A stretch of DNA of 64,000 nt, from positions 152,984 to 216,983 of the forward strand of contig NZ_CP047901.1 in assembly GCF_009936135.1 (NCBI RefSeq). The letters are read 5' to 3'. The notes beneath the pieces are model-generated. The model searched no databases, was not told where the DNA came from, and worked only from the letters and a program-made list of their open reading frames with translations. Positions 15,977-51,482 of the stretch are shown here, piece by piece. Position numbers and translations under genes: made by a program. The stretch is from Candidatus Chazhemtobacterium aquaticus. GTDB lineage: Bacteria > Patescibacteriota > Microgenomatia > UBA1400 > Chazhemtobacteraceae. How positions within the stretch are numbered: position 1 is the stretch's first letter; each line of letters opens with the position of its first letter.

Positions 15977-17118
15977 TATTTAATCCTCACTAATAATGCG
16001 ATGTGATGCTCAAATGTTTTAGCAAACTCAGTAAAGGCGTCAAAGTTACTAAACATAAAAGACTCCTCTAGTCCCGCCTCTGAAGTGAGTGTTAAGTCAC
16101 CGTACTTCACAATCGGAATTTGGTAGTTACCCTTAAATCGTCGATCGCGAGAACCATCTTTGTTTGTTTTCTTCCATGTATGCTGGATTACCTCGGTGTC
16201 ACCAGGAACTTTTTCTTCTTCGACATATCCAGTAAGCTTCATTACTGCCTTTATTTCTTTCAAATCAAAAATACCAAACTCTTGATTGCCCTTATACAAA
16301 AGTAAAAAAGTGGGAAAGAAAAACAAATCTGGACCGTTACTATTTGCTAGGTACAAAGAGGGCAGATCACTTTTGATGAAATCGACCACTTTTTTATCAT
16401 CTCCGTTAATGAGAGTGCGCTTAGTGGCGGTTTGGGCAATAGTACGAGCTTTGGCTTTATCAACCGACTCAGCGTAGGTTAAATCCCAAATCTTCTTACT
16501 CTTCATCAGCTCGTCGAATGCGTCAATGCAGTTTAGCCAGCTCTTCTCCAACTGTGACTTATCTGCAAAGGTAAGCTTGACGTAAGTTTCCAAGACTAAT
16601 TCCTCAATTTTTTTGACGAGCTTTTGCTGATCGGTACGCATAACAGCGATTTTCTTGTTGAAGAATCCAACAATCAAAGGAAAACTGAGTAAATGAGCAG
16701 CTGTTAAGGCGTAAAACTTGATCTTAGCTGACCGAAGTTCTTTGTTAAGCTCCATTCGCTTGTTATAGATGTCAGTCACCTGATTTCGCAGCTCCACAAA
16801 ATTCTTACTCGTCACAGTTAAGGCCTTACTAGAGCTCCTGATTATGTTCCCCGTATTTGATATTTCGATGCCTGGACGAAGATCGTCATTAGCATTACGC
16901 GAGGATGAGTTCTTTCGCGTTTTCGGGACTTTAAGGAGCCTGTCAACACCCACAGTGGTCCTACTATAGACACGGTTGTAAAGTGCTTTTTTGGGATTTG
17001 TAAGCAACCCCATACCTCTTGGAGCCTTAAGACCCAAACTATGACGCACAACTCGCTTCCAGGAGGTTCTGGCAGCAATTCTTTTTTTAAGAGAGGGTGT
17101 TCTTAGTCCAAATTTCAT
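15976..17118 (-). CDS. hypothetical protein
   Basis: 380-aa ORF with a basic N-terminus. Confidence 0.35.
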   Translation of the reverse strand: MKFGLRTPSLKKRIAARTSWKRVVRHSLGLKAPRGMGLLTNPKKALYNRVYSRTTVGVDRLLKVPKTRKNSSSRNANDDLRPGIEISNTGNIIRSSSKALTVTSKNFVELRNQVTDIYNKRMELNKELRSAKIKFYALTAAHLLSFPLIVGFFNKKIAVMRTDQQKLVKKIEELVLETYVKLTFADKSQLEKSWLNCIDAFDELMKSKKIWDLTYAESVDKAKARTIAQTATKRTLINGDDKKVVDFIKSDLPSLYLANSNGPDLFFFPTFLLLYKGNQEFGIFDLKEIKAVMKLTGYVEEEKVPGDTEVIQHTWKKTNKDGSRDRRFKGNYQIPIVKYGDLTLTSEAGLEESFMFSNFDAFTEFAKTFEHHIALLVRIK

Positions 17119-30947: not shown

Positions 30948-31001
30948 ACCTCTATATTAACAAGCCCGCCCTAATCAAACTAATCCCAATCCTCCAAAAG
31001 G

Positions 31002-31232
31002 TTAAAGTGTTCCCATCGCCCAAATCAATCCTACAGCTGCTCCAGCCATTAATCCTAAACCCATCACCTTCAAAGGCACTTCCAACACTCCATTTAAGGT
31101 TCTCGCCATCAACACTATCTGTCTCCACACAATCACTGAAAAAATCAAATACACTCCAAAGGCTGCCAAGTAAAACCACTTTACCAGTATCCAAATCTGT
31201 CCTGTCTCTCCTGTTATTTCTCCTAAGTCCAT
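31002..31232 (-). CDS. small two-TM membrane protein
   Basis: 76-aa ORF. Confidence 0.25.
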   Translation of the reverse strand: MDLGEITGETGQIWILVKWFYLAAFGVYLIFSVIVWRQIVLMARTLNGVLEVPLKVMGLGLMAGAAVGLIWAMGTL

Positions 31233-31271
31233 TTTTTACTCAACTTAATAATTTATACATCTTCCATCCAC

Positions 31272-31922: not shown

Positions 31923-31940
31923 ATACTTAATTGTACCTCA

Positions 31941-33770: not shown

Positions 33771-34154
33771 ATGAAAAAACTTTACTTTAATCTTCTCACC
33801 CTTATCACTACATCTCTTCTTTTTCCCTCATCAGTTCTCGCTCAAAACCCTGGCGATCTGTTCTGTAACGATAGCTCCGGCATCGCCACTGCTATCGGCT
33901 GTGTCTCACTTGAGCCTGGTGACTTTGCCGGAGACATCCTAAGATTCTCTGTTGGCATTGGTGGTGGTATTGCCCTCCTTCTCCTTCTTTACGGTTTTAC
34001 CCTACTCACCATGTCAGCTGGATCGCCCGACAAAGTCAACGCTGCTAAAGAAATCATCACCTCCGCCATCGGTGGTCTTATTTTTGTCACCATGGCCACT
34101 GTCCTCATGGGTTTTATCGGTATCAACATTCTTAATCTACCCGGCCTTAATTAA
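33771..34154 (+). CDS. VirB2/TrbC-like pilin paralogue P1 (Sec signal peptide plus two hydrophobic helices)
   Basis: Signal peptide ...SSVLA|QNPGD. Mature part has helix 1 (SVGIGGGIALLLLLYGFTLLTM), a polar loop (SAGSPDKVNAAKE), helix 2 (IITSAIGGLIFVTMATVLMGFIGI) and a GINILNLPGLN tail. It is a paralogue of the nine downstream genes. Confidence 0.55.
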   Translation: MKKLYFNLLTLITTSLLFPSSVLAQNPGDLFCNDSSGIATAIGCVSLEPGDFAGDILRFSVGIGGGIALLLLLYGFTLLTMSAGSPDKVNAAKEIITSAIGGLIFVTMATVLMGFIGINILNLPGLN

Positions 34155-34158
34155 TAAA

Positions 34159-35310
34159 ATGCGTACAACAATCTTCCTTTTCATCTTCCTCACAAACCTC
34201 TTTCTTTTCTCCGCTTCCCCCGCTCAAGCCGAATGTTGCGCCGCCAGCAGTTCTACATGCACCGGACCCTTCACCTGCGAAGGAGGCGAACTTATCTGTA
34301 CCACCTCTGCCGAATGCCCTCGCGATCCTTCCTGTTTTGACAGTGGCCAACCTTGCAACTCACTAAAGCCCTGCTGCGAAGAGGGTTTTGCCTGTTCTCC
34401 AACTACTTCAACCTGTCTGTCAACCGCTGCCCCCACCCCAGGCCCAGAACCAAGACCTATTGAGTGTGCACTCGCCCACATCGGCGCCGGCAGGGGAGGC
34501 CAAAACTGGGACGTCACTTACTGTGTCGCCGCCGACACTATTGAGGACCTCCATCGCGTCGCCCAAATCACCGGCATCTGCCGCCGCGGCGCCACCAGCA
34601 TTCTCGGCCAGTATGTCAACAACTGCTCTTGTCATGACGACGATTGGTACGACAACCCGCTCACTGCCGTGGGGGCTCGAGCGGTCTGCTGTGTCGCCGG
34701 ACTAGGTCGCTGCCCGTCAGCTGTTCGCACTACCCAAAGTGTCTCCGGCCAATTCCCCACTCTTTTTGACCCAAACACCAACCGCTACTACACCTGTTTC
34801 ACTCTCCAAGGCATTGATCGAAACGTTGGTATCATGGAAGTTCAGATCAAAGACGCCGATGGGCAACAAGTCTGTAGTGTTCCTCGCGTCACCGTCGCTC
34901 CGGGCAACTACAGCTGGTGGGAATACTTTGACAACACCCTTGAAACCCGCTTCGACACCTCTCTGCCTTTCTACGAAGACCCCACCGAACAAGATCGCTA
35001 CGATCTCACCTGTAGTACTGTCACTGGCAAGCGCGGCATCAACACCGCCATTGGCTGCATTGCCGTCAAACCAGTCGAATTTACTCAAGATTTCCTCACT
35101 GTCAGTATAGGCATTGGTGGTGGTATAGCTCTTTTACTGCTTCTCTATGCCACTGCTCTTATTACCCTTTCTCAAGGCAATCCTCAAAAAATCCAGTCGG
35201 GACAACAAATCATCGCCGCCGTCATCCAAGGCCTCATCCTCATTACCCTCTCAGTAGTTATGCTTAACTTCCTTGGTATTAACATTCTCAACCTCCCTGG
35301 TTTACAATAA
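34159..35310 (+). CDS. pilin-fusion P2: signal peptide, ~290-aa cysteine-rich extracellular domain, C-terminal VirB2-like pilin module
   Basis: The true start is the ATG at 34159 (MRTTIFLFIFLTNLFLFSASPAQA|ECC...). The ORF-track start at 33952 overlaps P1 in another frame. The mature N-domain has ~30 Cys (ECCAASSSTCTGPFTCEGGELICTTSAECPRDPSCF...). The C-terminal ~90 aa (GINTAIGCIAVKPVEF...SIGIGGGIALLLLLYATALITL...GINILNLPGLQ) is near-identical in pattern to P1. Confidence 0.55.
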   Translation: MRTTIFLFIFLTNLFLFSASPAQAECCAASSSTCTGPFTCEGGELICTTSAECPRDPSCFDSGQPCNSLKPCCEEGFACSPTTSTCLSTAAPTPGPEPRPIECALAHIGAGRGGQNWDVTYCVAADTIEDLHRVAQITGICRRGATSILGQYVNNCSCHDDDWYDNPLTAVGARAVCCVAGLGRCPSAVRTTQSVSGQFPTLFDPNTNRYYTCFTLQGIDRNVGIMEVQIKDADGQQVCSVPRVTVAPGNYSWWEYFDNTLETRFDTSLPFYEDPTEQDRYDLTCSTVTGKRGINTAIGCIAVKPVEFTQDFLTVSIGIGGGIALLLLLYATALITLSQGNPQKIQSGQQIIAAVIQGLILITLSVVMLNFLGINILNLPGLQ

Positions 35311-35314
35311 AGCC

Positions 35315-35653
35315 ATGCTACTTGCTCAAGCTGACATTACCAATGTCCCTAACCCTGCCACCAACTTTACCGACCCCGCCACCTGGAATATTGCTGGCCT
35401 TCTTACTGGGGGTACTGGAAGTTTTAATCTTGTCAACCTAGCCTTCTTCCTCGTCGGCTTCGTCTTCTTCTCAAACCTAGTCATCGCCGCCGTCACCTAT
35501 ATTATGTCCGAAGGTTCTCCCGATAACGTCTCCAAAGCCAACTCGCGCTTCACCACTGGATTAATTGGCCTCATCGTTGTCTTTGCCAGCTTTGTTATAG
35601 TCCGTTTAGTTGCTGCTCTTTTCAGTCTTGATGCTAGCGTTCCAATAAACTAG
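35315..35653 (+). CDS. VirB2/TrbC-like pilin paralogue P3
   Basis: Two-helix hairpin ...LVNLAFFLVGFVFFSNLVIAAVTYIMSEGSPDNVSKANSRFTTGLIGLIVVFASFVIVRLVAALF. The start is uncertain, either 35273 or 35315. Confidence 0.45.
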   Translation: MLLAQADITNVPNPATNFTDPATWNIAGLLTGGTGSFNLVNLAFFLVGFVFFSNLVIAAVTYIMSEGSPDNVSKANSRFTTGLIGLIVVFASFVIVRLVAALFSLDASVPIN

Positions 35654-35662
35654 AAACAAAAC

Positions 35663-36061
35663 ATGAAAACAAAAAAACTTCTCATTCTTCCACTAACCAC
35701 TCTCTTCTTTATCTCAAATCCCCATCTTGCCCACGCTCAACTCAATCCCTTTCAAACCAACCTTAAAGACATGTTTCCTGCTGCCCAAAACCTTCCCAAT
35801 CCAGGCAGTGGTGGCGTTCTCTCTACTTTCCTCAACCCAATCGTTAGTTTCGTTCCCATCGTCACTGGCATTCTCTCCTTCATTATTATCATCATTGCCG
35901 GCATCAAATATATAAGTCACGCAGGCAATGCCCAAGAAACCAAAAAAGTCAACGATATGATAACATACGCCTTAGTAGGACTGGCCTTGTCAGCCATCGC
36001 TTTCTGGATCACCCGCCTTCTCTTTATGGTCGGCGCTGGTGACTCTCAAAACTTATTCTAA
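35663..36061 (+). CDS. VirB2/TrbC-like pilin paralogue P4
   Basis: Signal peptide ...NPHLAHA|QLN, followed by two hydrophobic helices separated by the loop HAGNAQETKKVNDM. Confidence 0.5.
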   Translation: MKTKKLLILPLTTLFFISNPHLAHAQLNPFQTNLKDMFPAAQNLPNPGSGGVLSTFLNPIVSFVPIVTGILSFIIIIIAGIKYISHAGNAQETKKVNDMITYALVGLALSAIAFWITRLLFMVGAGDSQNLF

Positions 36062-36063
36062 CC

Positions 36064-36435
36064 ATGAACCTAATCAAACTCCTTATACCCGTCGTTTACG
36101 CTCAAACCGATCCTATTGGCACCATTCAAGCTCCCGCCTCTATTGTTACTGGACCCAGCGATATCTACAAAATATTTAACTCAGTCGTTAATCTCTTAGT
36201 TGTCGTTGCTGGTATCTGGTTTCTTGTCCAAATCATTCTAGCCGGTTTCAACTACATCACCGGTGCTGGTGATAGCAATAAAACTGGCGAAGCCATGAAA
36301 AAAATCACCGACTCTGTCATTGGTCTTGTGGTTGTCGCCGCCGCCTTTATCATCACCTACATTGCTGGTGCTCTCTTTTTTGGCACAGGCTTTAACATCC
36401 TACAACCAACCATAAAAACCATTACTGATTTCTAA
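36064..36435 (+). CDS. VirB2/TrbC-like pilin paralogue P5
   Basis: Short leader MNLIKLLIPVVYA|QTD. Helix 1, then loop GAGDSNKTGEAMKKITDS, then helix 2. Confidence 0.55.
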   Translation: MNLIKLLIPVVYAQTDPIGTIQAPASIVTGPSDIYKIFNSVVNLLVVVAGIWFLVQIILAGFNYITGAGDSNKTGEAMKKITDSVIGLVVVAAAFIITYIAGALFFGTGFNILQPTIKTITDF

Positions 36436-36440
36436 TAATC

Positions 36441-36812
36441 ATGAATCTAGTCAAACTTTTCATCCCCCAAGCTCACGCTGCATTCACCCAAGGAGGTGAT
36501 ATTGTCGGCCCGGGATCTCATCAAAACATCAGCTCCGCTACTGCTGGCACCTCACTTGAAACCCTCATTAGCACTCTTCTTGGTGCACTCACTGCCATCG
36601 CTGGTTTAGGTTTCCTCATCTACTTCGTCATTGGCGGCATCAACTGGATCACCGCTGGTGGTGACCAACAAAAACATCAAAAGGCCACCAAACAGCTTAC
36701 CGACGCCGCCATAGGCCTTATCGTCGTCGTCGTCGCCTACGCTATCGCCGGTATTGTTGGCACAGTCCTTGAAGTTGATATATTAAATCCAGCCAGCCTA
36801 CTCGGCTTATAA
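36441..36812 (+). CDS. VirB2/TrbC-like pilin paralogue P6
   Basis: Leader MNLVKLFIPQAHA|AFT. Conserved core GGINWITAGGDQQKHQKATKQLTDAAIGLIVVVVAYAIAG. Confidence 0.55.
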   Translation: MNLVKLFIPQAHAAFTQGGDIVGPGSHQNISSATAGTSLETLISTLLGALTAIAGLGFLIYFVIGGINWITAGGDQQKHQKATKQLTDAAIGLIVVVVAYAIAGIVGTVLEVDILNPASLLGL

Positions 36813-36819
36813 CCACAAT

Positions 36820-37158
36820 ATGTTTATCAAATCCGCCTACGCTGCCATCTCCAACCCTGCCCTCCAAAATTTTGGTACCGACACTACTGGTGGAGCCGGT
36901 TTAGCTTTCTATGTTTCTCAGCTCTGGAAAACCCTCGTCGTCGTTGGCGGCCTCGCCTTCCTCCTTTACACCATTATTGGCGGAATCAACTGGGTCATTG
37001 CCGGAGGCGACAAAACCAAAGTCGAATCCGCTCAAAAACACCTCACCAACGGACTCACCGGCCTTATCGTTCTTGCCGCTTCTTACGCCATCATGGCCGT
37101 GGTCAGTGATGTTGTTGGTATCAATATTCTTAATATTGATTGGACCTTTGGCAACTAA
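36820..37158 (+). CDS. VirB2/TrbC-like pilin paralogue P7
   Basis: Leader MFIKSAYA|AIS. Core GGINWVIAGGDKTKVESAQKHLTNGLTGLIVLAASYAIMA. Confidence 0.55.
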   Translation: MFIKSAYAAISNPALQNFGTDTTGGAGLAFYVSQLWKTLVVVGGLAFLLYTIIGGINWVIAGGDKTKVESAQKHLTNGLTGLIVLAASYAIMAVVSDVVGINILNIDWTFGN

Positions 37159-37162
37159 AACC

Positions 37163-37477
37163 ATGAATATTATCAAACCCGTCTACGCTCAAACATCAGA
37201 TATTGATAGCCAAGTCACCGGCTTCTTTGCTTATAGCAACGTTGGTGATCTTGTCAGCACCCTCGTCACCACTGCCATTGTCGTTGGTGCCCTTGCCACC
37301 CTTATCTATCTCATCATAGGTGGTATCAACTGGATCACCTCAGCCGGAGATACCCAAAAAGTCGAATCCGCTCAAAAACACCTCACCAACGCCCTTATTG
37401 GCCTAGTAATTCTCGTCGCTGCCTATGCCATTTTCACTGTCGTTAAAGCTTTTCTTGGTATCGGTGATGAAATCTGA
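37163..37477 (+). CDS. VirB2/TrbC-like pilin paralogue P8
   Basis: The true start is the ATG at 37163 (MNIIKPVYA|QTSD). The ORF-track start at 36911 overlaps P7 in another frame. Core GGINWITSAGDTQKVESAQKHLTNALIGLVILVAAYAIF shares an identical ~34-nt stretch with P7. Confidence 0.55.
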   Translation: MNIIKPVYAQTSDIDSQVTGFFAYSNVGDLVSTLVTTAIVVGALATLIYLIIGGINWITSAGDTQKVESAQKHLTNALIGLVILVAAYAIFTVVKAFLGIGDEI

Positions 37478-37543
37478 CCCATTTGACAGGGTCAAACCCA
37501 TCTGAATATAATCAGCTTAACCATTAATTATCTTATCCAAAGC

Positions 37544-37888
37544 ATGAAACTACTTGAATCGCTTATCAAACCAGTACAAGCCCAGTCCGATCTTGGTGTT
37601 CCCGAACCAGATTACGCTGTTAGTAGCATTGGCAACCTTCTCTCTGGTCTAGTTAACGCCGCTATCGTTATCGGCGCTCTCGCCGCCTTCCTCTATCTCA
37701 TCCTTGGTGGCCTTCAATGGATCACCGCCGGTGGAGATAAAACCAAAACCGAAGAAGCTCAGAAAAAAATCACTAATGCCATTATCGGCTTAGTCATTAT
37801 TGCTGCTGCCTATGCCATCATCACCGTCGTTGTCCAATTCCTTGGAATCGGTGAAATCAGCAGTCTTTCTCTTCCTGCCATCGAATAA
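37544..37888 (+). CDS. VirB2/TrbC-like pilin paralogue P9
   Basis: Leader MKLLESLIKPVQA|QSD. Core GGLQWITAGGDKTKTEEAQKKITNAIIGLVIIAAAYAIIT. Confidence 0.55.
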   Translation: MKLLESLIKPVQAQSDLGVPEPDYAVSSIGNLLSGLVNAAIVIGALAAFLYLILGGLQWITAGGDKTKTEEAQKKITNAIIGLVIIAAAYAIITVVVQFLGIGEISSLSLPAIE

Positions 37889-37916
37889 CTTTATTTTCAA
37901 CAAAGTTAATCAAAAG

Positions 37917-37941
37917 AACCTTCCACCAGGAAGGTTTTTTT
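37917..37941 (+). terminator. Rho-independent terminator between pilin genes P9 and P10
   Basis: AACCTTCC-ACCA-GGAAGGTT forms a perfect 8-bp stem with a 4-nt loop, immediately followed by a T7 run, in the 80-bp gap after P9. Confidence 0.65.
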
Positions 37942-37968
37942 GTTATCCCGCCATGCTACAATCTGCTC

Positions 37969-38322
37969 ATGAAGCTAAACTTCACCGCTCATGCCCAAGA
38001 CTGGGCTAGTATTGACCCAAACTGCGTTGCTGGACCCAACAACGATGTTGCCACCATCCAGGGCTTCAAATGTATCATCACTAATCTACTAGCTATCATC
38101 GCCCCCATCATCACCCTCGTCGCCATTGGCATGATCATCTTAGGCGGCGCCAAAATGATAGCAGGCGCAGATAACCCCAAAGCCGTTGACGAAGCCAAAA
38201 AAATCATCACCTTCGCCATCATTGGTGTCATTGGTATTGCTGCTGCCTGGATCATCCTCGTCCTCATTCAAGAATTTACCGGCGCTCCCGTCACCCAGTT
38301 CCAAATCATCACCAATCCTTAG
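37969..38322 (+). CDS. VirB2/TrbC-like pilin paralogue P10 (divergent, Cys-containing)
   Basis: Leader MKLNFTAHA|QDW. Two helices with the loop GGAKMIAGADNPKAVDEAKKII. Two Cys in the mature N-region. Confidence 0.5.
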   Translation: MKLNFTAHAQDWASIDPNCVAGPNNDVATIQGFKCIITNLLAIIAPIITLVAIGMIILGGAKMIAGADNPKAVDEAKKIITFAIIGVIGIAAAWIILVLIQEFTGAPVTQFQIITNP

Positions 38323-38386: not shown

Positions 38387-41300
38387 ATGCGTTATCTACT
38401 CGCCACCCTCTCCACCCTACTAATCACATCTCTACTCACCAACACAGTTTTTGCCCAAGCTAACCCTGCGGGAACCGTTGGACCTGAAATAGCTGTTCCT
38501 AATGCGGGCACCACTGTCATAGCTGCCCAAAGTTACACTGGTGTTGTCTCTGTGATCAACTACATCGATATTGATGGTCCAGTCGCCTTTAACTCAGTGC
38601 CCATCAAAAATCTTAATGTTCCCACCATTTTAAGAGTCGACATTTCCGCTAACACCTCCAATGAAGACATTGTTGCCTACGCCAACAGTCTTAACAGCGT
38701 TGTCGACACTGAGTTTCCTAATGGTCTGAAAGTTGTTGTCCTAAGCGTCGAAACTAACAATCTCGACTGGTGGTACGGCAGCCCTGGCCAGTCCAATGAT
38801 GAAGCCTCCATCCGCCAAGGCGCGCGAGAATATGCCGAAAAATTCATCCTCTTTGCCCAAACTATTCGGCAAGACCTTCCCCTAGCCCCAGCTCCACCAG
38901 ATCTTTTCAATGGCGTCTTTAACGCCGATCCCTGGATGGACGAATTTACTCGTTCAGGCACATGTCCTTATGTGGATTACAATGTCTCCGATATTTTTGA
39001 GCTAACTCCCACTGTTGGTGGCGGAGCCTATGCTTGGAACACTGTCCACCTCTATCAACAAGAAAAAATGTGTGGCAAGGATGTCATCCATTTTGAAGGC
39101 TGGGGTATTAATCCCAACAACCCTCCGCCAACCGTTAAACAACAAGTTGATTGGTTTCAAAACACTCCTCTCCCTCCTGGCATTGAAACCGCCACCACTC
39201 TCATTCTTCCTCACTGTCCTCCAGAATATGACGCTAGTCTTGACCAAACCGTCAACGGCTTCATAGATTGGTGGTACTACATCAACGGCCGGGTCTTTAC
39301 CTCCGATGGACTTGAAATTGATCCCGAAAGCTGTACCGAAAGAGAAAAACCTGATTGTTACTACGACGGCAATCTCACCCGACCTGGTGGTACCTGCAAA
39401 TCCAGAGTTCCCTACGTCCATAGTGCTCTTGAACAATACGCACCTCAATGTACTCTCACGCCTCAAGGATCACTCTCCCGAACTTCTTGTGGCATTCCAC
39501 CCACCATCACCAATTTGCCCAATGACCCCCAGGAGTACATGGATGTACGACTCCTTGTTAACTACTCACAACTCCAACTTGGTGGTTTAGGACCAGACCA
39601 CACCGCCTGGCGATCTATACCTATCGACAACCTAGCTCGCGGCTACCCTTACAACGCCCTTGCCGATAAACCACTTTCTGTTACAGAAGATACTCCCAAA
39701 GAAGCCTTTCGTACCTGGTGGCGCCTATTAAGCCTCCGTCAACAAATTGAGGCCAAAGCTGAATTCTTCCAACGCTTCCGTATTCAAGACCCTCCCATTT
39801 TTGACTCCGAGTTTGCCTATTCTCAAGGTGGCAGCACTCAGACCTACACCATCAGTGAACTAGAGAACATTCTTCCCGACTGTCTTCGCCTTTTTCCAGT
39901 TCCCAATCGCTGTGGCATAACCGCTGATTCTCTTACCCCTGAACAAACCTACTACAGGCTCCCTGAAACTACTCGTGCCATGTACGACGCCTTTCTCCCT
40001 TTCGACTTCGACAACGTGCGCGGATATCTTGCTCTTCAATACAAAGACCCTACCGATTTCCTATCAGGAGAAAACCGCAATCGAGCCGGGGTCATCGCCG
40101 ACAATCTCCCATATATTCAAGCCCTAGTCGATATCTTAAGCAATAAAGTTAGTGGCATCTTAACCGCCCTAAGCCCTCAATGGCTAAACACCCTAAGAAC
40201 CGACACTCTACCTACCTCAAAAGATTACACCATCGAATACGAAGAAAGTGGCGAAATCAACCTCACCCCCGAATCCCAACAATCCTTCACTCACATGGCA
40301 GCCGCTGCTCGCACTAACTCAGAATATGGAGCAGACTGGGCTTCAGATCTAGCTACCACCTGTTACAATCCCGAAAATCAAGACCCAACTCTTTCTTCAC
40401 CCCTCACCTACCCTCAAAAGCTTGAGGCGCAAGACCCATATCTTCCTCTTCCTGGATCAGAATATACCGACGTTCTTGATCAATCAGTTCTTATCCCCAC
40501 CGAGACTTCAATTTACTATGGCACTCCCACCACCTCTGGATCAGATATCACTTGTACCTACGAAACTGGCAATACTTGCTCTTACGACATCAACACCGGC
40601 TCTTGTCCTCCTCTTTACATCACCAATACCACAGGTGGCATTCCTGGACAAAGAGACCCGGACCTTCCGGTTCGTTCTCAAGTCGGTCGTTCCATCATCA
40701 CCTTTGCCAACCCCCTTATGACAGACATTAGTCGCCTCATCTCCGAACCGTATCTTGGTATGCCTGACACCAGTGGTACATACAACTGGGCCTCCCATAT
40801 GAACCTCTCTCTCTACCATCAAATGCTCACTCGCGACTTTACCCCCCAACCCCAACCTTTTACCGAAATGTTTTCCGAATACACAGAAGATCCCATGTAT
40901 GCCAAACAAGCTCAGTATCAAGCTAGTAAAGACAATGACTCAGCTGTCACCCTCTCTGCCCAAGCCGGTGGAACTGGTGACCAAACAGGACTAGTCGCAC
41001 GCAAAGGTGGCCAACTTGAAATTGATCTCTGCAAACTTCGAAACTTCTGGCTCCGTCCCGATTCTCTCCAAATTGGTGACCCTGAAGATTGCCAACAACT
41101 TGATCAATACATCTCCACACCAAACCAACCCTATGAACTCACCACTCCTGGATCAACCGACTCAGCCTGTCAGGTCAAACAATATCTTTTCGAAAACATC
41201 TGTCCTGGCGGATCATGCTCTTCATACGTCGTCGACACAGCCCTCTCCACCTCTTGTTCTGGTAAAGTTATAAATCCTTACTTCGCCATCACTGTTGCTC

Positions 41301-41737
41301 TCAACGAAAACGGAGGGCTAACCAGCATTCACAGCGACGGCACCAATGTTAAACACTTCGGATGTGCTCCTTTTGATATCGGTGCCACAATGTACGGACA
41401 TGACATTCCCTCCAAAACTTCCTGTTTTACTGACACCATATCCAACGACTGTCGAGACAATAAAACTGACCTAGAAACCCTTCAAGAATATGGTTACTCC
41501 GCCTCCTATCTTCGCACCTTAAACAACATCCTGAGAGTCTTAGGTGCATGCTCCGCAGACCAAGTCAATCAACAACAGCTTTGCGTTCCCATCTGGGTTA
41601 GTCCTTCCCAGGCCCAATCCATCTCCAACAGTCTTCTACCCATTCTCACCTCTCAACGTAGTCTCTGGTTCCGCTACTACCAGGGGTATCTTGAAGCCAT
41701 GGCCACCGACAATCAGTGTTCACTCTACCAACCATAG
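38387..41737 (+). CDS. large (1116 aa) secreted protein of unknown function, candidate pilus- or T4SS-associated surface/adhesin component
   Basis: Sec signal peptide MRYLLATLSTLLITSLLTNTVFA|QA. No TM or sorting motif after it. Many Cys, Trp and Tyr. Co-oriented and tightly spaced with P10 upstream and the VirB6-like gene downstream. Confidence 0.5.
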   Translation: MRYLLATLSTLLITSLLTNTVFAQANPAGTVGPEIAVPNAGTTVIAAQSYTGVVSVINYIDIDGPVAFNSVPIKNLNVPTILRVDISANTSNEDIVAYANSLNSVVDTEFPNGLKVVVLSVETNNLDWWYGSPGQSNDEASIRQGAREYAEKFILFAQTIRQDLPLAPAPPDLFNGVFNADPWMDEFTRSGTCPYVDYNVSDIFELTPTVGGGAYAWNTVHLYQQEKMCGKDVIHFEGWGINPNNPPPTVKQQVDWFQNTPLPPGIETATTLILPHCPPEYDASLDQTVNGFIDWWYYINGRVFTSDGLEIDPESCTEREKPDCYYDGNLTRPGGTCKSRVPYVHSALEQYAPQCTLTPQGSLSRTSCGIPPTITNLPNDPQEYMDVRLLVNYSQLQLGGLGPDHTAWRSIPIDNLARGYPYNALADKPLSVTEDTPKEAFRTWWRLLSLRQQIEAKAEFFQRFRIQDPPIFDSEFAYSQGGSTQTYTISELENILPDCLRLFPVPNRCGITADSLTPEQTYYRLPETTRAMYDAFLPFDFDNVRGYLALQYKDPTDFLSGENRNRAGVIADNLPYIQALVDILSNKVSGILTALSPQWLNTLRTDTLPTSKDYTIEYEESGEINLTPESQQSFTHMAAAARTNSEYGADWASDLATTCYNPENQDPTLSSPLTYPQKLEAQDPYLPLPGSEYTDVLDQSVLIPTETSIYYGTPTTSGSDITCTYETGNTCSYDINTGSCPPLYITNTTGGIPGQRDPDLPVRSQVGRSIITFANPLMTDISRLISEPYLGMPDTSGTYNWASHMNLSLYHQMLTRDFTPQPQPFTEMFSEYTEDPMYAKQAQYQASKDNDSAVTLSAQAGGTGDQTGLVARKGGQLEIDLCKLRNFWLRPDSLQIGDPEDCQQLDQYISTPNQPYELTTPGSTDSACQVKQYLFENICPGGSCSSYVVDTALSTSCSGKVINPYFAITVALNENGGLTSIHSDGTNVKHFGCAPFDIGATMYGHDIPSKTSCFTDTISNDCRDNKTDLETLQEYGYSASYLRTLNNILRVLGACSADQVNQQQLCVPIWVSPSQAQSISNSLLPILTSQRSLWFRYYQGYLEAMATDNQCSLYQP

Positions 41738-41773: not shown

Positions 41774-43564
41774 ATGCTCAAGAAAATCCTTCTCACTTTC
41801 ACCACTCTCTGCCTGTTTTTTACCTTATCCATTCCCGCTCATGCTCAAACAGACACTAAAGACATCTTAAGAGATTTCTGCGACAGTCGCCAAGGCAATG
41901 TTATCAATCTAGAAACCTGGTATGCCGGCAGATGCGATCCTGAGAGTGAAACATCAACTTTCATGGGTCAAAACCGCGGCTTTGGAGATATTGTCATCCT
42001 CCATCTCTATGAACTGATAAATGGCGAGCAAAACAAGGCAGATGAGGATATGATCAAAGACTTCTTCGAGTCCCTTGTTGACACCATTTCTCAAAACAAC
42101 GGCTTTAATTATCTCACCTACATTCAAGAAAATAATGCCACATTCAAAAACACATCATCGAACTCAGGTATGATATCCCAAATTAGTGGTGGCATTTCCT
42201 ACTTAATCTCAACCCCTCCGGCGAGTACCCAACAATATATCGCCTACATCAATAACAACCTCCAAAGACATAGCCTAACCCAACCAGCATACGCTCAAAA
42301 CGCCACTGGAGAAGGTGGTGGATATGGCTTTGCCCGTCTTGAAGGTTTTCTACCTCTCTGGAAAGCTTTCCGCAACATAGCCTACTTCTTCTTCATTCTC
42401 GCATTCGTCATCTACGGCTTCATGATCATGTTCCGTGTCAAAATTAACCCTCAAACAGCTGCCAATATTCAACTAGCTCTTCCTAAACTAATAGTCACCC
42501 TCATCCTCATCACCTTTTCCTATGCCATAGTCGGTCTACTTATCGACTTTATGTGGGTTGGTTACTATCTTATACTCAACACCTTAGACAGCTTTGGAGT
42601 CTTTGGAGAATCCAAAGGAGTACTTGGGTTCGTCAATGATATATTCCGCGGCCTCGCCTCAGGAGGAGGCGGACTAATCCTCACCTCAATTTTCCAAACA
42701 ATTTTAGCTGTTTACGCCGGCGTGCCTGGAACCTTAGGAGCCCTCACCGGAATATCTGGAAACATATTTACCATTATTATGGCACTCACTACTTTTACCG
42801 GCATAGGGCTAATTCTCATCCTTATCATACTCATTGCCGTCATTATCGCCCTCATTAAGCTATTTGTTAAACTTGTCACTGCTTACGTCACCATCTTTAT
42901 CAACCTAGTTCTTTCTCCCCTCATACTTCTTAGCGGTATTTTTCCCGGCAAGAATGACGTTTTTAGTACTTGGATTACCAACCTTGTTGCTAACATTATT
43001 GTCTTCCCTGTCGCCTCCATCCTTCTTCTTTTCTCCGGATATTTTATGACCCAACCAGTCGCCTCCTTAATCCAGGATACATTAAATGGTTTAGCAAACA
43101 TAATCCCCGGAATAGACGGGAATGTCTCACTGTCCCTAATAGAAAACACCCAAAGAATTCCTAACGTCCCCCTCCTATCACCTCAAACTGAGTGGCTTAG
43201 TAATTTTCCTATAATAGGAAGCGCGGTTGCCGCTGGAGCGTCCGAGTGGTATGCCCTGATAGGCCTCGCTCTTCTCCTCATGTCACCTAAGTTCGTAGAT
43301 ATGGTCATGGATGCCTTCAAAGTCAAACCATTCCCCTACGGTTCTGCTGCCATAGAATCTTTAACCGCAGGCTACAAAGCTGAGGCGGGCTTAATTGGTA
43401 AAGCTACTGAAGAAGGAGGGGTGTTAGCGAGAAGATTGCCTAGGTTTAGCAGTAAACTTAGAGGTAGGCAGGAGCAAATCGACACAAGCGTCAACATCCT
43501 CTCAGGAGGAAAAGTCAAACCAGCCGGCACTGAAGGAGATCAAACTCCAGTTAGTAGGTCATAA
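41774..43564 (+). CDS. VirB6/TrbL-like polytopic inner-membrane T4SS component with N-terminal signal peptide and ~190-aa extracytoplasmic domain
   Basis: Signal peptide MLKKILLTFTTLCLFFTLSIPAHA|QTD, followed by at least 6-7 hydrophobic helices (e.g. IAYFFFILAFVIYGFMIMF, LIVTLILITFSYAIVGLLIDFMWVGYYLIL, GIGLILILIILIAVIIALIKLFV...). Confidence 0.5.
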   Translation: MLKKILLTFTTLCLFFTLSIPAHAQTDTKDILRDFCDSRQGNVINLETWYAGRCDPESETSTFMGQNRGFGDIVILHLYELINGEQNKADEDMIKDFFESLVDTISQNNGFNYLTYIQENNATFKNTSSNSGMISQISGGISYLISTPPASTQQYIAYINNNLQRHSLTQPAYAQNATGEGGGYGFARLEGFLPLWKAFRNIAYFFFILAFVIYGFMIMFRVKINPQTAANIQLALPKLIVTLILITFSYAIVGLLIDFMWVGYYLILNTLDSFGVFGESKGVLGFVNDIFRGLASGGGGLILTSIFQTILAVYAGVPGTLGALTGISGNIFTIIMALTTFTGIGLILILIILIAVIIALIKLFVKLVTAYVTIFINLVLSPLILLSGIFPGKNDVFSTWITNLVANIIVFPVASILLLFSGYFMTQPVASLIQDTLNGLANIIPGIDGNVSLSLIENTQRIPNVPLLSPQTEWLSNFPIIGSAVAAGASEWYALIGLALLLMSPKFVDMVMDAFKVKPFPYGSAAIESLTAGYKAEAGLIGKATEEGGVLARRLPRFSSKLRGRQEQIDTSVNILSGGKVKPAGTEGDQTPVSRS

Positions 43565-43618
43565 AACCCCAATACAACTTACTCAACCCGTCATGGTGTA
43601 CAAACTAATCACCACCAA

Positions 43619-46147: not shown

Positions 46148-46207
46148 CTGGGCAGTAAAAATAACCTATAACTACCTCTAGATTTTAACATACTTACCCT
46201 CAAACAA

Positions 46208-47363: not shown

Positions 47364-48353
47364 ATGCCCGTCCAACAGCATCCCATCCCCCAAAACGTCA
47401 CCAGCTATCAATTCCGCTTAGTTGGCGACATGACTCTCAAACAATTTCTCCAGCTAGCAGCTGGCATAGTCATTGGTCTAGTTATCTACGCCACCCCCCT
47501 TCCTTCCTTCTTCAAATGGCCTCTCATCTCTATCATTGTTGGCCTTGGTGCTGCCATTGCCTTTGTCCCTGTTCAGGGCCGACCCTTGGATCAATGGATT
47601 GTTGCCTTTATCCGCTCCATCTACGCTCCCACCATCTATGTCTGGCAAAAACCCAACAACCAACAACCATCTCTAAACCAAGCTCCCACCTCCATTACGC
47701 AGGCTCTACAATCCTCTCCCCCCACTAGTCCTTCCCCCACTGCCACTCAACCTCAAACCTCAAAAATCGAGCGCCCTAATTTAGTCCCTCAAATCCACAC
47801 CTTAACCAGAGCTACTCCACCCACTCCCAACCCTACTCCACCACCCCAACCCGAACCCCTCATCCCCACTAGCCAAGATATCAAAAAATCAGCCAAAAAC
47901 GTATTTGCTTCACCACCAAAACCAATTGCTGTCACTCCGCAATCTCATCAAAACACCAATCATCAATCAACTCAATCCTCTTCTAAGCCCGCTCCAACCA
48001 CCTCTACCGCTACTGTTTCCGATACACCAGCTCAACCAGGAACCTCCGCTTCCTTCTCAACCGACCTCCCCATCCCCAGCACCCCTCAAACCCCCAACAC
48101 TATCGTTGGCATGACTCTCTCCCCACAGGGTAAAATCCTGGAATCAGTCATTGTTGAGATCCTTAAAAACGGTCAGACCATCCGCGCCACCAAAAGCAAC
48201 AAGCTCGGCCAGTTTCTCTTTGCCAAACCTCTTGATGACGGAATCTTCCAGATTACTGCCGACAAAGACGGTTTCACTTTTCCCCGCTTCGATCTTAAAC
48301 TAGACGGTCAAATCATTCCCCCAATTAAACTCCAAGCCACAGGTACAAAATAA
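47364..48353 (+). CDS. PrgI/VirB3-like T4SS membrane protein fused to a Pro/Thr-rich linker and a C-terminal CarboxypepD_reg-like beta-sandwich domain
   Basis: N-terminal ~100 aa (SYQFRLVGDMTLKQFLQLAAGIVIGLVIYATPLPSFFKWPLISIIVGLGAAIAFVPVQGRPLDQWIVAFIRSIY) fits the PrgI/VirB3 two-TM pattern and precedes VirB4 as in Gram-positive-type T4SS. The C-terminus ...ILESVIVEILKNGQTIRATKSNKLGQFLFAKPLDDGIFQITADKDGFTF resembles CarbopepD_reg/Cna-B folds. Confidence 0.45.
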   Translation: MPVQQHPIPQNVTSYQFRLVGDMTLKQFLQLAAGIVIGLVIYATPLPSFFKWPLISIIVGLGAAIAFVPVQGRPLDQWIVAFIRSIYAPTIYVWQKPNNQQPSLNQAPTSITQALQSSPPTSPSPTATQPQTSKIERPNLVPQIHTLTRATPPTPNPTPPPQPEPLIPTSQDIKKSAKNVFASPPKPIAVTPQSHQNTNHQSTQSSSKPAPTTSTATVSDTPAQPGTSASFSTDLPIPSTPQTPNTIVGMTLSPQGKILESVIVEILKNGQTIRATKSNKLGQFLFAKPLDDGIFQITADKDGFTFPRFDLKLDGQIIPPIKLQATGTK

Positions 48354-48354
48354 C

Positions 48355-49476
48355 ATGATCGACAAAGCCATCAAAGCTACCACCCAAGAACATCTTGATA
48401 TTTACACCATCAAAGAACACTTTGTTATCTTAAAAGACGGTTCAACTGCTCTAGTTCTTCAAATTTCTGCCATAAACTTTGGTCTTCTCTCTGAGGAAGA
48501 ACAAGATGCTCTCATCTTCTCCTACGCCTCACTCCTAAACTCTCTTTCCTTTCCTATCCAAATCATTGTCCGCTCCGTCAAAAAAGATATCACTTCATAC
48601 TTAGAGCTTCTTGATGATCGTCTCGAACAAACCTCTTCTCAAAAGCTCAAAGAGCAGATCGTCAAATACCGCAGCTTCATCAGGAGTCTTGTTAAAAAGA
48701 ACAAAGTTCTTGAAAAAAAATTCTACGTCGTCATCCCTTACAGCTATCTAAGTGTCAATCAAGTCTCCAACAACCTTAATCCACTCGCTAAACCACCCCA
48801 AAAACCACCCCAAGATGTTGACTTTCTCGTTGCCAAATCCAAACAAGAACTCTATCCTCGTCGCGACCACCTCATTCGTCAATTTGCTCGTTTAGGCCTC
48901 CAGTGTCGCCAACTCACCACTCAAGAGCTAGTTACCCTTTTCTACAAAACCTACAACCCCTCCACTCAAGGCATTGAGCAATATCTCACTCTACCCACTG
49001 ACTATGAAACCCCAGCCGTTCAAACCAAAGTCAGAAATCTGTACACCGAAAAAGACACTCCCACTACCCCTATCGCCCCAACACCAACGGCTCCTACTCC
49101 TTCTCCAACCACCCCCACTCAACCCACGACTCCAACTCCACCCATTCCCCCTATTACTCCACACCAAACTACCACCACCCCTCAAAACCAACCTCATTCA
49201 CCTACTCCTCAACCAGTAACTCCACCCAATCCTTCTCCTATCACACCACCAACTCAACCAACCTTTTCTTCTCCATCACCCTCTCCATTACCATCTCCAT
49301 CGCCCACACCCCCGCCAGCCTCACCAACACAAAACCAAACTCTATCCATGCCCACTCCACCATCTACACCCACTAACCCAAACCCCCAAACCTCTCCACC
49401 TCCCGACCCAGCCGACTCAGTTATCCCTCCCTCCCCTCCGGTCACCTCACCGCCTCCACCTTTTCCTTTCTCGTAA
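48355..49476 (+). CDS. VirB4/TrbE N-terminal domain (CagE_TrbE_VirB-like) followed by a Pro/Thr-rich tail; first half of a split VirB4
   Basis: ...LDIYTIKEHFVILKDGSTALVLQISAINFGLLSEEEQDALIFSYASLLNSLSFPIQIIVRS... (the hallmark L.KDGS region of the VirB4 N-domain), then ~160 aa of PTPS low complexity ending at a TAA. Confidence 0.5.
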   Translation: MIDKAIKATTQEHLDIYTIKEHFVILKDGSTALVLQISAINFGLLSEEEQDALIFSYASLLNSLSFPIQIIVRSVKKDITSYLELLDDRLEQTSSQKLKEQIVKYRSFIRSLVKKNKVLEKKFYVVIPYSYLSVNQVSNNLNPLAKPPQKPPQDVDFLVAKSKQELYPRRDHLIRQFARLGLQCRQLTTQELVTLFYKTYNPSTQGIEQYLTLPTDYETPAVQTKVRNLYTEKDTPTTPIAPTPTAPTPSPTTPTQPTTPTPPIPPITPHQTTTTPQNQPHSPTPQPVTPPNPSPITPPTQPTFSSPSPSPLPSPSPTPPPASPTQNQTLSMPTPPSTPTNPNPQTSPPPDPADSVIPPSPPVTSPPPPFPFS

Positions 49477-49538
49477 CACACTTCCTGCCTTGATATACTT
49501 TAACCACTGTCATCAGTATTTAACTTCTTACCCTACAT

Positions 49539-51437: not shown

Positions 51438-51482
51438 TACCTCGCTGCTGTAAACTGTAACCATCACCAATCCCGATTATCT

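What the first reader, a model, noticed from the sequence alone, without database searches (positions are those of the whole stretch)
38387..41737. 1116-aa secreted orphan protein embedded between pilins and VirB6
A large Sec-dependent protein with no recognisable domain by eye and no membrane anchor is co-transcribed, judging by tight spacing, with P10 upstream and the VirB6-like gene downstream. By position it could be a VirB5-like minor pilin or tip adhesin scaled up, a surface-layer component, or a secreted substrate. It is a candidate novel component of this system.
Basis: inference. Interest (0 to 1): 0.55.

Follow-up and report, generated by a model that had tools for sequence, protein, structure and literature searches.

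The report
Secreted wall-cutting partner of T4SS pilus
A large exported protein, encoded between the pilus-subunit genes and the membrane-channel gene of a type IV secretion system in an ultrasmall symbiotic bacterium, belongs to a conserved but unnamed family that carries sugar-chain-cutting enzyme modules and probably opens or recognises cell walls where the pilus works.

Summary
The ORF is real (38387..41737, +, 1116 aa). It has a Sec signal peptide, no other hydrophobic segment, 26 Cys and pI 4.4. It is identical to QHO63190.1, a 'hypothetical protein' of Ca. Chazhemtobacterium aquaticus (Microgenomatia, CPR).

It is not an orphan. A profile search found 467 cluster representatives. In every context examined, the gene sits between the last of eight VirB2-like pilin genes and a polytopic VirB6-like gene, upstream of PrgI, TrsD and VirB4. 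In metagenome loci: 62/63 pilin upstream, 44/44 VirB6-like downstream, 21/21 VirB4.

Sequence libraries give nothing for this protein. AlphaFold2 with a 44-sequence alignment folds aa 26-320 at pLDDT 90-98 into a (beta/alpha)8 barrel. Its Foldseek neighbours are all clan GH-A glycoside hydrolases. A Glu after strand 4 (E122) is invariant.

The C-terminal module (aa 885-1116) has an invariant Glu (E974) in a lysozyme/SLT-like motif. Orthologues in the same slot carry Pfam-significant SLT or SLT_3 domains there. The middle 560 aa remain unfolded and unassigned.

Between two strains whose VirB4 is 98.9% identical at nucleotide level, most of this gene has pS of about 0.4-0.6.

Best reading: a Sec-exported, VirB1-like but much expanded glycan-cleaving and glycan-recognising accessory subunit of the pilus apparatus. 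This is a new variant of a known kind.

The parts
38387..41737 (+). Gene for the 1116-aa secreted protein (stop codon 41735-41737). Identical to QHO63190.1 of Ca. Chazhemtobacterium aquaticus.
38387..38461 (+). Sec-type signal peptide, aa 1-25 (MRYLLATLSTLLITSLLTNTVFAQA). The cleavage site is inferred by eye after AQA.
   Evidence: The only hydrophobic 19-mer of the protein lies here. 151 of 161 family members have a hydrophobic N-terminus.
38462..39349 (+). N module, aa 26-321: a (beta/alpha)8 barrel of clan GH-A type, followed by a small beta appendage.
   Evidence: AF2 pLDDT 90-98. Foldseek PDB top hits are GH79, GH128, GH26, GH30, GH44, GH2, GH53 and GH39, at E 1e-4 to 1e-2 and prob 1.0. 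A phage glycosyl hydrolase matches at 3e-6. The module is found in 44 of 160 relatives, N-terminal or inserted.
38750..38752 (+). Codon of E122, the candidate acid/base just after strand 4 (motif SVETNNL; family consensus GNELNNL).
   Evidence: E122 and N124 are invariant in 37/37 diverse N modules. The strand is at aa 116-119.
39095..39097 (+). Codon of E237, the candidate nucleophile on strand 7 (motif HFEGWG).
   Evidence: The strand is at aa 233-240. A Glu is present at this or the next position in only 24/37 family members.
39350..41038 (+). Core, aa 322-884: cysteine-containing region of unknown fold. This is the 'window-type' core, found by this sequence alone in 41 of the 160 relatives held locally.
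   Evidence: pLDDT <50. phmmer with the core alone. hhalign found no significant link to the majority core type.
39884..40006 (+). Hypervariable block 1, about aa 500-540.
   Evidence: 60-70% identity to five of the seven close homologues in the aa 511-540 window, against a 90-100% background. pN about equal to pS at about 0.3.
40727..40906 (+). Hypervariable block 2, about aa 781-840.
   Evidence: 23-53% identity in five of seven close homologues. pN 0.36, pS 0.44, with indels.
41039..41734 (+). C module, aa 885-1116: candidate lysozyme-like (SLT/GH23-like) domain, 'LNExGG' subtype.
   Evidence: Invariant P964, E974 and G992. E974 in 85/85 and S980 in 82/85. Orthologues carry Pfam SLT (8.6e-5) or SLT_3 (1.1e-7) at this position. 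Best local alignments to goose lysozyme, Slt70 and family SLT domains all hit the catalytic-Glu helix but are not significant.
41306..41308 (+). Codon of E974, the invariant Glu of the C module (VALNENGG).
33952..38322 (+). Context: array of eight VirB2-like pilin genes. They are 33952, 35273, 35663, 36064, 36441, 36820, 37544 and 37969. The first is a 452-aa fusion.
   Evidence: PF18895 matches; the second gene, 35273..35653, was not scanned against Pfam. Eight pilin ORFs in 29/29 loci with enough upstream sequence. Position-specific orthology.
41774..43564 (+). Context: 596-aa polytopic VirB6-like protein, which always follows the gene.
   Evidence: Hydropathy. A homologue lies directly downstream in 44/44 loci.
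47364..54104 (+). Context: PrgI (VirB3-like), TrsD-like, VirB4-like ATPase and an 873-aa M23 peptidase.

Best explanation
The protein is a Sec-exported, disulfide-rich accessory subunit of the Microgenomatia-type type IV secretion (pilus) apparatus. It is made together with the eight pilins and the VirB6-like channel protein.

It carries two glycan-directed modules on a large lineage-specific scaffold. The first is an N-terminal clan GH-A-like barrel. The second is a C-terminal lysozyme/lytic-transglycosylase-like domain.

Its most likely job is the one VirB1, PrgK and TraG do in other T4SSs: to cut or hold cell-wall glycan locally so that the pilus or channel can cross a wall. The wall could be the bacterium's own and, given strain-level allelic replacement, probably also the host's.

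Shown: export signal, family, fixed genomic slot, GH-A-like fold, invariant Glu residues, SLT domains in orthologues, allelic divergence.

Inferred: catalysis, substrate, physical association with the pilus, and action on the host.
For: 1. Fixed slot. The gene sits between pilin 8 and the VirB6-like gene in L001, L003, L004/5, L006, L088 and L089. In metagenome loci, 62/63 have a pilin upstream, 44/44 a VirB6-like gene downstream and 21/21 VirB4.

2. Export. There is a signal peptide with no membrane anchor, and 26 Cys (family median 26).

3. N module. pLDDT is 90-98, and every top PDB neighbour is a clan GH-A hydrolase. E122 and N124 are invariant in 37/37. The inserted copies of the module keep the canonical GNELN and TEYG pairs.

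4. C module. E974 is invariant in 85/85. P0144, in the same slot in L012, has Pfam SLT at 22.5 bits, above the gathering score. P0039, which has the same core type as the window protein, has SLT_3 at 32.6 bits.

5. Locus context. The locus otherwise carries only SpoIID-like and M23 wall enzymes and no recognisable VirB1. The literature notes that VirB1 is mostly missing near Patescibacteria virB4 and that other glycosidases may fill the role.

6. Strain variation. pS is 0.35-0.6 over aa 1-950, against 98.9% nucleotide identity for VirB4 and 100% for the next 3 kb. This fits an exposed, contested surface.
Against: No activity has been shown.

The window protein has Val, not Asn, before E122. 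The strand-7 Glu is missing in 13/37 N modules, so the barrel may bind rather than cut.

The window's own C module has no significant match to any lysozyme model. It has lost the Trp and Ser of the commoner 'W..ES' motif. AF2 gives it only pLDDT 55-63. Profile-profile P values are 0.01-0.02.

Half of the protein (aa 322-884) is unexplained.

Association with the pilus is inferred from gene order only.
Confidence: 0.5

Rival explanations
1. It is a non-catalytic adhesin or host-specificity determinant of the pilus, working like F-type TraN, PrgB or VirB5. The GH-like and lysozyme-like modules would be degenerate and only bind host surface glycans.
For: There are hypervariable mosaic blocks and whole-allele replacement between strains. 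The strand-7 Glu is absent in 13/37 N modules, and Val replaces the usual Asn before E122. The window-type C module has lost the Ser and Trp of the ES motif. The protein is cysteine-rich and Sec-exported, like TraN.
Against: E122 and N124 are invariant in 37/37 and E974 in 85/85. That is hard to explain without a chemical role. Orthologues keep canonical SLT motifs (E...GLMQI). There is no sequence match to TraN, PrgB or VirB5 models.
Confidence: 0.22
2. It is a toxin or effector aimed at the host cell wall. It would be exported by Sec and then released or presented by the T4SS in a two-step route, like pertussis toxin. It would not be a structural or assembly part of the machine.
For: It has muralytic-type modules and a Sec signal. 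It shows rapid allelic turnover. Reviews speculate that Patescibacteria T4SSs deliver effectors.
Against: The single-copy, invariant position inside the pilin/VirB6 operon across very distant lineages is typical of machine parts, not of effectors. No adjacent immunity-like gene is conserved in the loci read.
Confidence: 0.1
3. It is a secreted polysaccharide hydrolase for nutrient scavenging that merely lies next to T4SS genes.
For: It has a clan GH-A fold. CPR bacteria are thought to live on products of glycoside hydrolases.
Against: The synteny is strict: 62/63, 44/44 and 21/21. The barrel is dispensable in most family members, whereas the core and the lysozyme-like end are kept. There is no neighbouring sugar transporter or catabolic gene.
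Confidence: 0.08
4. It is a surface-layer or wall structural protein unrelated to secretion.
For: It is large, acidic, exported and has no anchor.
Against: Same synteny argument as above. It has a modular enzyme-like make-up. It has no repeats or S-layer-type motifs, and no match in Pfam.
Confidence: 0.03

Closest known systems
VirB1 / VirB1* of Agrobacterium-type T4SSs (SLT-family lytic transglycosylase)
   Same: Both are encoded in the T4SS operon next to pilin genes and are Sec-exported. Both have a lysozyme-like module with a single essential Glu. From general knowledge, the secreted VirB1* part promotes pilus formation.
   Different: VirB1 is about 245 aa with a canonical SLT domain. This protein is 1116 aa. 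Its C module has no significant SLT match of its own. It also has a GH-A-like barrel and a 560-aa unknown core.
Multi-domain wall hydrolases of monoderm T4SSs: PrgK (pCF10), TraG (pIP501), TcpG (pCW3), CD419/TrsG
   Same: These are monoderm-type T4SS proteins in which several wall-directed modules are combined in one protein (described).
   Different: Those proteins combine SLT with CHAP, LytM or NlpC/P60 peptidase modules and usually have an N-terminal membrane anchor (general knowledge). Here there are no peptidase module and no anchor. The partner module is a GH-A-like barrel, and the gene lies in the pilin operon.
SEML1_0006 / SEML1_0007 of Southlakia epibionticum (Saccharimonadia T4SS, essential by Tn-seq)
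   Same: These are Patescibacteria T4SS-linked lysozyme-like and peptidase proteins that are essential for epibiotic growth.
   Different: They lie downstream of virB4, not between the pilins and VirB6. They have Pfam-recognisable lysozyme/CHAP or DD-peptidase folds. No gene occupies the pilin-VirB6 slot in that genome.
Clan GH-A (4/7 superfamily) glycoside hydrolases, especially compact GH128 and GH79 barrels
   Same: It shares the (beta/alpha)8 fold. A Glu follows strand 4 in a G-N-E-x-N-like motif, and a Glu lies on strand 7 in the window protein.
   Different: Sequence identity is 10-15%, and there is no match to any Pfam GH model. Val replaces the Asn before the acid/base Glu. The nucleophile is not conserved in the family.
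TraN of F-type conjugation systems (mating-pair stabilisation adhesin)
   Same: Both are large, Sec-exported, cysteine-rich T4SS accessory proteins with variable regions that (in TraN) set partner specificity (general knowledge). This protein shows comparable variable blocks.
   Different: There is no sequence relationship. TraN is an outer-membrane protein of diderms and has no enzyme-like modules.
VirB5-type minor pilin / tip adhesin
   Different: VirB5 proteins are about 220-aa helical proteins. There is no match and no comparable architecture.

Membership tests
Clan GH-A glycoside hydrolases (N module) | (beta/alpha)8 barrel fold | tested here: met
   AF2 gives pLDDT 90-98 for aa 26-320 with eight alternating strand/helix units. 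The Foldseek top 18 PDB hits are all GH-A families, prob 0.99-1.0.
Clan GH-A glycoside hydrolases (N module) | Acid/base Glu at the C-terminal end of strand 4 | tested here: met
   E122 follows strand 116-119 and is invariant in 37/37.
Clan GH-A glycoside hydrolases (N module) | Asn immediately before the acid/base Glu (N-E-P motif) | tested here: not met
   The window protein has V121. Asn is present in 20/37 relatives and Val or Ile in 17/37.
Clan GH-A glycoside hydrolases (N module) | Nucleophile Glu at the end of strand 7 | tested here: inconclusive
   E237 lies on strand 233-240 in the window protein, but a Glu is present in only 24/37 relatives. No structural superposition of side chains was possible.
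Clan GH-A glycoside hydrolases (N module) | Sequence membership in a described GH family | tested here: not met
   No Pfam match for the protein or for 28 N modules. No PDB profile match.
Clan GH-A glycoside hydrolases (N module) | Glycosidic bond hydrolysis | not testable with these tools
   Needs enzyme assays.
Lysozyme-like / SLT (GH23-type) domains (C module) | Significant match to SLT, SLT_2, SLT_3 or lysozyme models | tested here: not met
   There is none for the window protein. Slot orthologues do match: P0144 SLT at 8.6e-5 and P0039 SLT_3 at 1.1e-7.
Lysozyme-like / SLT (GH23-type) domains (C module) | Catalytic Glu at the end of a helix, followed by Ser (E-S), then a G-x-M-Q-like turn | tested here: inconclusive
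   E974 is invariant in 85/85. The next residue is Ser in 64/87 relatives but Asn in the window protein. An HFGC/DFGI turn follows. Alignments to goose lysozyme (E 0.41), Slt70 and family SLT domains (P 0.013-0.021) all place E974 on the catalytic Glu.
Lysozyme-like / SLT (GH23-type) domains (C module) | Lysozyme-like fold | tested here: inconclusive
VirB1-class T4SS wall hydrolases (functional class) | Encoded within, and conserved with, a T4SS gene cluster | tested here: met
VirB1-class T4SS wall hydrolases (functional class) | Needed for channel or pilus assembly through the wall | not testable with these tools
   Needs genetics or biochemistry.
VirB2-like pilins (PF18895) / VirB5 minor pilins | Small hydrophobic pilin fold, or a ~220-aa helical VirB5 fold, with a family match | tested here: not met
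   No match at E<=0.1. The protein is 1116 aa and has no hydrophobic helices beyond the signal peptide.
LPXTG-anchored T4SS adhesins (PrgB type) | C-terminal LPXTG motif plus a hydrophobic anchor | tested here: not met
   No LPxTG motif and no C-terminal hydrophobic segment.
TraN-type mating-pair stabilisation proteins | Sequence match to the TraN family | tested here: not met
   No Pfam match. Only general traits are shared: Cys-rich, exported, variable blocks.

The most novel reading that the evidence does not exclude
The protein is the host-contact head of a pilus built from eight distinct, anciently diverged pilins. It would sit at or along the pilus, recognise a host-specific wall glycan through its variable blocks, and enzymatically breach the host wall. 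It would then be the specificity and penetration device of the Microgenomatia T4SS, and the reason why alleles are swapped between strains. The unassigned 560-aa core would be a new fold that docks onto the pilins or onto the VirB6-like ectodomain.
Probability: 0.22. Interest if true: 0.8.

Novelty: new variant of a known kind. Interest (0 to 1): 0.57.

Why it matters
The role of the Patescibacteria T4SS is described as 'completely unknown' (PMC11665869), although it is essential in the one species tested (PMC10633639). Surveys found VirB1 homologues mostly missing near virB4, and VirB6 'scarce' in Microgenomatia (PMC12102498).

This gene fills part of that gap. It is a fixed, unnamed member of the pilin operon with glycan-directed modules. 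That gives a concrete protein to express, assay on host walls and look for on pili.

It also corrects the genome paper's statement that the organism 'lacks secreted glycoside hydrolases' (PMC7143001). The correction is at the level of fold only.

The strain-level allelic replacement marks it as a candidate host-range or phage-contact determinant.

Tried and rejected
Searches that gave nothing or too little:
- The word-indexed homologue search gave only 13-14 proteins, even when queried with alignments. It badly under-reported the family. The exhaustive profile search was needed.
- Two scans of the species-representative genome collection found nothing.
- Searches of papers for the assembly accessions found nothing. 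The organism was identified through the exact-sequence look-up instead.
- Whole-protein and module profiles against PDB sequences gave no significant hit.
- PHROGs on the C modules gave nothing.
- Pfam on 28 N modules gave nothing.
- phmmer with the Slt70 catalytic domain against the family gave nothing.

Structure attempts:
- The first AF2 run, with 13 sequences, was poor: mean pLDDT 37.8.
- The 149-row alignment was too large for prediction.
- An 87-row alignment failed to build.

Weak or negative comparisons:
- hhalign of the window-type C module against Slt70 and against the family's own SLT-type ends gave only P 0.013-0.021.
- hhalign of the window-type core against the majority core gave probability 0.8%. 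I therefore do not claim that the two cores are homologous. I claim only that they occupy the same slot and exchange the same end modules.

Rejected readings:
- Pilin or VirB5: no match.
- LPXTG adhesin: no motif.
- A paralogue elsewhere in the window: none found.
Full report
OBSERVATION

The ORF is exactly as reported: 38387..41737 on the + strand, ATG start, 1116 codons plus a stop. Seven close homologues (80-92% identity) start with the same MRYLL... sequence.

The only hydrophobic 19-residue window in the protein is aa 4-22. An AQA motif follows at aa 23-25. There is no second hydrophobic segment and no LPxTG motif. The mature protein has 26 cysteines and a calculated pI of 4.4.

The upstream gene (37969..38322) is a PF18895 T4SS pilin and ends 64 nt before the start. 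The downstream gene (41774..43564) starts 36 nt after the stop. It encodes a signal peptide, about 170 exported residues and then six to seven hydrophobic helices. This is VirB6-like in topology, though it has no Pfam match.

No terminator-like site lies at either boundary. However, the scan is no better than shuffles, so co-transcription stays an inference.

Pfam, NCBIfam and PDB-sequence searches return nothing for the protein.

An exact look-up shows that it is QHO63190.1/WP_161931583.1, 'hypothetical protein', of Candidatus Chazhemtobacterium aquaticus. This organism belongs to the Microgenomates group of the Patescibacteria.

THE PROTEIN IS NOT AN ORPHAN

The word-indexed search found 13 relatives. 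An exhaustive profile search of 1.84 billion cluster representatives found 467 at E<=1e-3, 351 at <=1e-10 and 90 at <=1e-30.

Mapping the best 150 locally shows a modular protein, with three parts:
- An N module (aa 26-321 here) occurs in 44 of the 160 proteins held. It is usually N-terminal, but it is inserted in the middle of P0010, P0012, P0015, P0017, P0059 and P0088.
- A core (aa 322-884 here).
- A C module (aa 885-1114 here) occurs in 93 of 160. It is permuted in P0031, P0033 and P0042.

A caveat matters here. The window's core alone retrieves 41 of the 160. A profile of this 'window-type' core has no significant hhalign match to the majority core type (probability 0.8%). I therefore treat the set as one slot family with two core types that share and exchange the same end modules:
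- The window's N module is 50-58% identical to those of P0009, P0011 and P0013, which have the majority core.
- P0010 has the window-type core with the majority 'ES' C module.
- C-module segments in A4 begin with the majority-core end motif (EYFLK.IQKALRP) and continue into the window's 'LNExGG' C module.

THE GENOMIC SLOT IS FIXED

All seven homologue contexts I could read show the same order. These are L001, L003, L004/L005, L006, L088 and L089.
- On one strand: SmpB, a ~620-aa protein, DUF5657, a ~220-aa bPH protein and a SpoIID-like protein.
- Divergently: a pilin array, this gene, a ~560-aa VirB6-like gene, a ~600-860-aa gene on the opposite strand, PrgI, a TrsD/TraC-like gene, VirB4 and (in several of these loci) an M23 peptidase. 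dnaN follows in L006, as in the window.

A metagenome scan keyed on motifs inside the majority-type protein itself, not on T4SS genes, returned 309 confirmed places, of which 80 were kept. Results where enough flanking sequence was available:
- 62 of 63 loci have a + strand pilin ORF ending within 1.5 kb upstream.
- 44 of 44 loci have a VirB6-like homologue starting within 2.5 kb downstream.
- 21 of 21 loci have VirB4 further downstream.
- 29 of 29 loci have exactly eight pilin ORFs upstream.

There is no paralogue in the window.

THE N MODULE

With a 13-sequence alignment AF2 failed (mean pLDDT 37.8). With a 44-sequence alignment, aa 26-320 reached pLDDT 90-98. The region shows eight alternating strands and helices, followed by a short beta appendage.

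Foldseek against the PDB returned only clan GH-A enzymes at the top, at E 1e-4 to 1e-2 and prob 0.99-1.0:
- GH79 beta-glucuronidase.
- GH128 beta-1,3-glucanases (TM 0.5-0.57 normalised to the target).
- GH26, GH30, GH44, GH2, GH53 and GH39.

The only significant viral match is a phage 'glycosyl hydrolase' (3e-6).

In 37 diverse N modules these residues are invariant: F110, E122, N124, Y149, L272, C277 and W295. E122 lies just after strand 4, in a G-N-E-L-N-N-L consensus (SVETNNL here). This is the place and motif of the GH-A acid/base.

The window protein also has E237 on strand 7 (HFEGWG). However, only 24 of 37 relatives keep a Glu there. The window protein has Val instead of the usual Asn before E122. 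The inserted copies keep textbook pairs (FGNELN ... FTEYGL).

The fold assignment is therefore solid. Catalysis by the window's copy is plausible but unproven.

No Pfam GH model matches any of 28 modules. By sequence this is a new family.

THE C MODULE

P964, E974 and G992 are invariant in a 32-sequence alignment. In 87 diverse modules, E974 is present in all 85 aligned and S980 in 82.

The common motif is NPxFxLAIWxxESxASNY...DFGI. The window's subtype reads NPYFAITVALNENGGLTS...HFGC.

Every comparison I could make puts E974 on the catalytic Glu of a lysozyme-like enzyme, but none is significant:
- Goose-type lysozyme 3gxk, E 0.41.
- E. coli Slt70 E478 by HMM and by hhalign, P 0.021.
- The family's own SLT-type ends, P 0.013.

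The stronger argument is positional. Directly after the same core-end motif, other slot proteins carry recognisable lysozyme-like domains:
- P0144 has Pfam SLT at 8.6e-5 and 22.5 bits (gathering score 21.3).
- P0039, with the window-type core, has SLT_3 at 1.1e-7 and 32.6 bits (cut-off 27).
- P0051, P0045 and P0067 have weak SLT or SLT_2 matches.

Many others show E(S/G)...G(P/L)MQI by eye. P0144 is encoded in L012 between pilins and the VirB6-like gene.

THE CORE

Residues 322-884 stay below pLDDT 50 and match nothing. This region is unexplained.

VARIATION BETWEEN STRAINS

I compared the window with L001, a close relative. Amino-acid identities:
- VirB4, the VirB6-like protein, the opposite-strand 842-aa protein and the bPH protein: 100%.
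- SpoIID-like protein: 99%.
- This protein: 91%.
- Two pilins: 85% and 92%.
- The 452-aa first pilin fusion: 43%.

The differences in this protein are mosaic. Blocks at about aa 271-300, 500-540, 781-840 and 991-1020 drop to 23-70% in different combinations among seven homologues.

At the DNA level:
- Codons 1-950 have pS of 0.18-0.6 (one window 0.02), with pN/pS of about 0.05-0.1.
- Two blocks have pN about equal to pS, at about 0.3.
- The last 165 codons are identical, as is the 3 kb at 43223-46215.
- VirB4 is 98.9% identical.

This is allelic replacement by recombination in a gene under purifying selection. That pattern is typical of exposed proteins under frequency-dependent selection from hosts, phages or competitors.

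MECHANISM

What is shown:
- The protein is exported.
- It is encoded with the pilins and the VirB6-like gene in every lineage examined.
- It carries a GH-A-type barrel with an invariant Glu.
- Its C-terminal position is a lysozyme/SLT position in the family.
- It is a recombination hot spot.

What is inferred: after Sec export and disulfide formation it stays with the nascent pilus or channel, possibly through the core. It would use one or both glycan modules to cut or grip wall glycan where the pilus crosses the bacterium's own wall and where it meets the host envelope.

This is the VirB1 / PrgK / TraG kind of function in a new and much larger architecture. The survey of Patescibacteria T4SSs found few VirB1 homologues near virB4 and suggested that other glycosidases may substitute (PMC12102498). 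In Southlakia the lysozyme-like and peptidase genes downstream of virB4 are essential (PMC10633639). That genome has no gene in the pilin-VirB6 slot.

I put this reading at about 0.5. The rivals are:
- A non-catalytic adhesin or specificity factor, TraN-like in behaviour (0.22).
- A Sec-then-T4SS effector (0.10).
- A scavenging hydrolase (0.08).
- An S-layer protein (0.03).

NOVELTY

No paper found describes the protein. The genome paper does not mention a T4SS and states that the organism lacks secreted glycoside hydrolases (PMC7143001). The T4SS survey and the 2025 nomenclature review do not list such a component.

T4SS-linked wall hydrolases are a known kind. This architecture, its sequence families and its fixed place in an eight-pilin operon are new. 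My verdict is a new variant of a known kind, with interest 0.57.

Noticed in passing
window 33952-38322; loci L009-L089: The pilin array has exactly eight genes in 29/29 metagenome loci with enough upstream sequence. The eight are position-specific orthologues: the best hit in another locus is at the same array position in 84-100% of comparisons. This points to eight ancient, differentiated pilins (a heteromeric or staged pilus) rather than to recent amplification for antigenic variation, as the literature suggests. In the window itself, positions 1, 4, 6, 7 and 8 map cleanly, while positions 2, 3 and 5 are more divergent.
   Followed up: partly
window 33952-35310 (+): The first 'pilin' is a 452-aa fusion, with a pilin domain at aa 376-441 and a long exported N-terminal part. 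It is only 43% identical between two strains whose VirB4 is 100% identical. Positions 34154-35026 do not align at the DNA level at all. It is the most variable gene of the locus.
   Followed up: partly
whole window 1-64000: There is extreme G/C strand disparity. GC skew is -0.36 overall. At third codon positions it is -0.54 to -0.71 in + strand genes and +0.53 to +0.86 in most - strand genes examined. There is no switch across dnaN. This is already published for this genome and its relatives (PMC7143001). Genes 5707..6993 and 15976..17118 lack the third-position skew and may be recent arrivals or inversions.
   Followed up: yes
window 46224-47282 (-): An rve-family integrase/transposase gene lies between the opposite-strand 842-aa gene and PrgI. 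It is absent from the otherwise collinear relative L001, so it is a strain-specific insertion inside the T4SS cluster.
   Followed up: partly
window 43619-46147 (-): An 842-aa acidic protein with no hydrophobic segment and no family match is encoded on the opposite strand in the middle of the T4SS cluster. A gene of 580-860 aa occupies this place in every locus read. It is 100% identical between the two strains. Its function is unknown; it could be a cytoplasmic T4SS partner.
   Followed up: no
window 29085-33695 (-): A divergently transcribed block accompanies the pilin operon in about 30-36 of the 86 loci fetched (many are too short to reach it). It consists of a 620-aa single-pass membrane protein, DUF5657 (about 76 aa), a 216-aa bPH-domain membrane protein and a 584-aa SpoIID-like protein. 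It may be a further wall-remodelling part of the system.
   Followed up: partly
window 41774-43564 (+): The VirB6-like protein has no Pfam or NCBIfam match, yet it is conserved in 44/44 loci. This fits the published remark that VirB6 seems 'scarce' in Microgenomatia because of divergence. This family could be used to close that gap.
   Followed up: partly
window 37483-37512 (+): A perfect sigma-70 consensus (TTGACA, 18 nt, TATAAT) lies inside the pilin array, just upstream of the seventh pilin gene. It could be an internal promoter serving pilins 7-8, this gene and the VirB6-like gene. Overall promoter-like counts equal those of shuffles.
   Followed up: no
window 20724-28248: There is a cluster of seven tRNA genes (Asn, Arg x2, Ser x4) and a tmRNA gene (tag EPASEAAFAFAYAA) just upstream of the T4SS region. 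In close relatives SmpB lies next to it.
   Followed up: no
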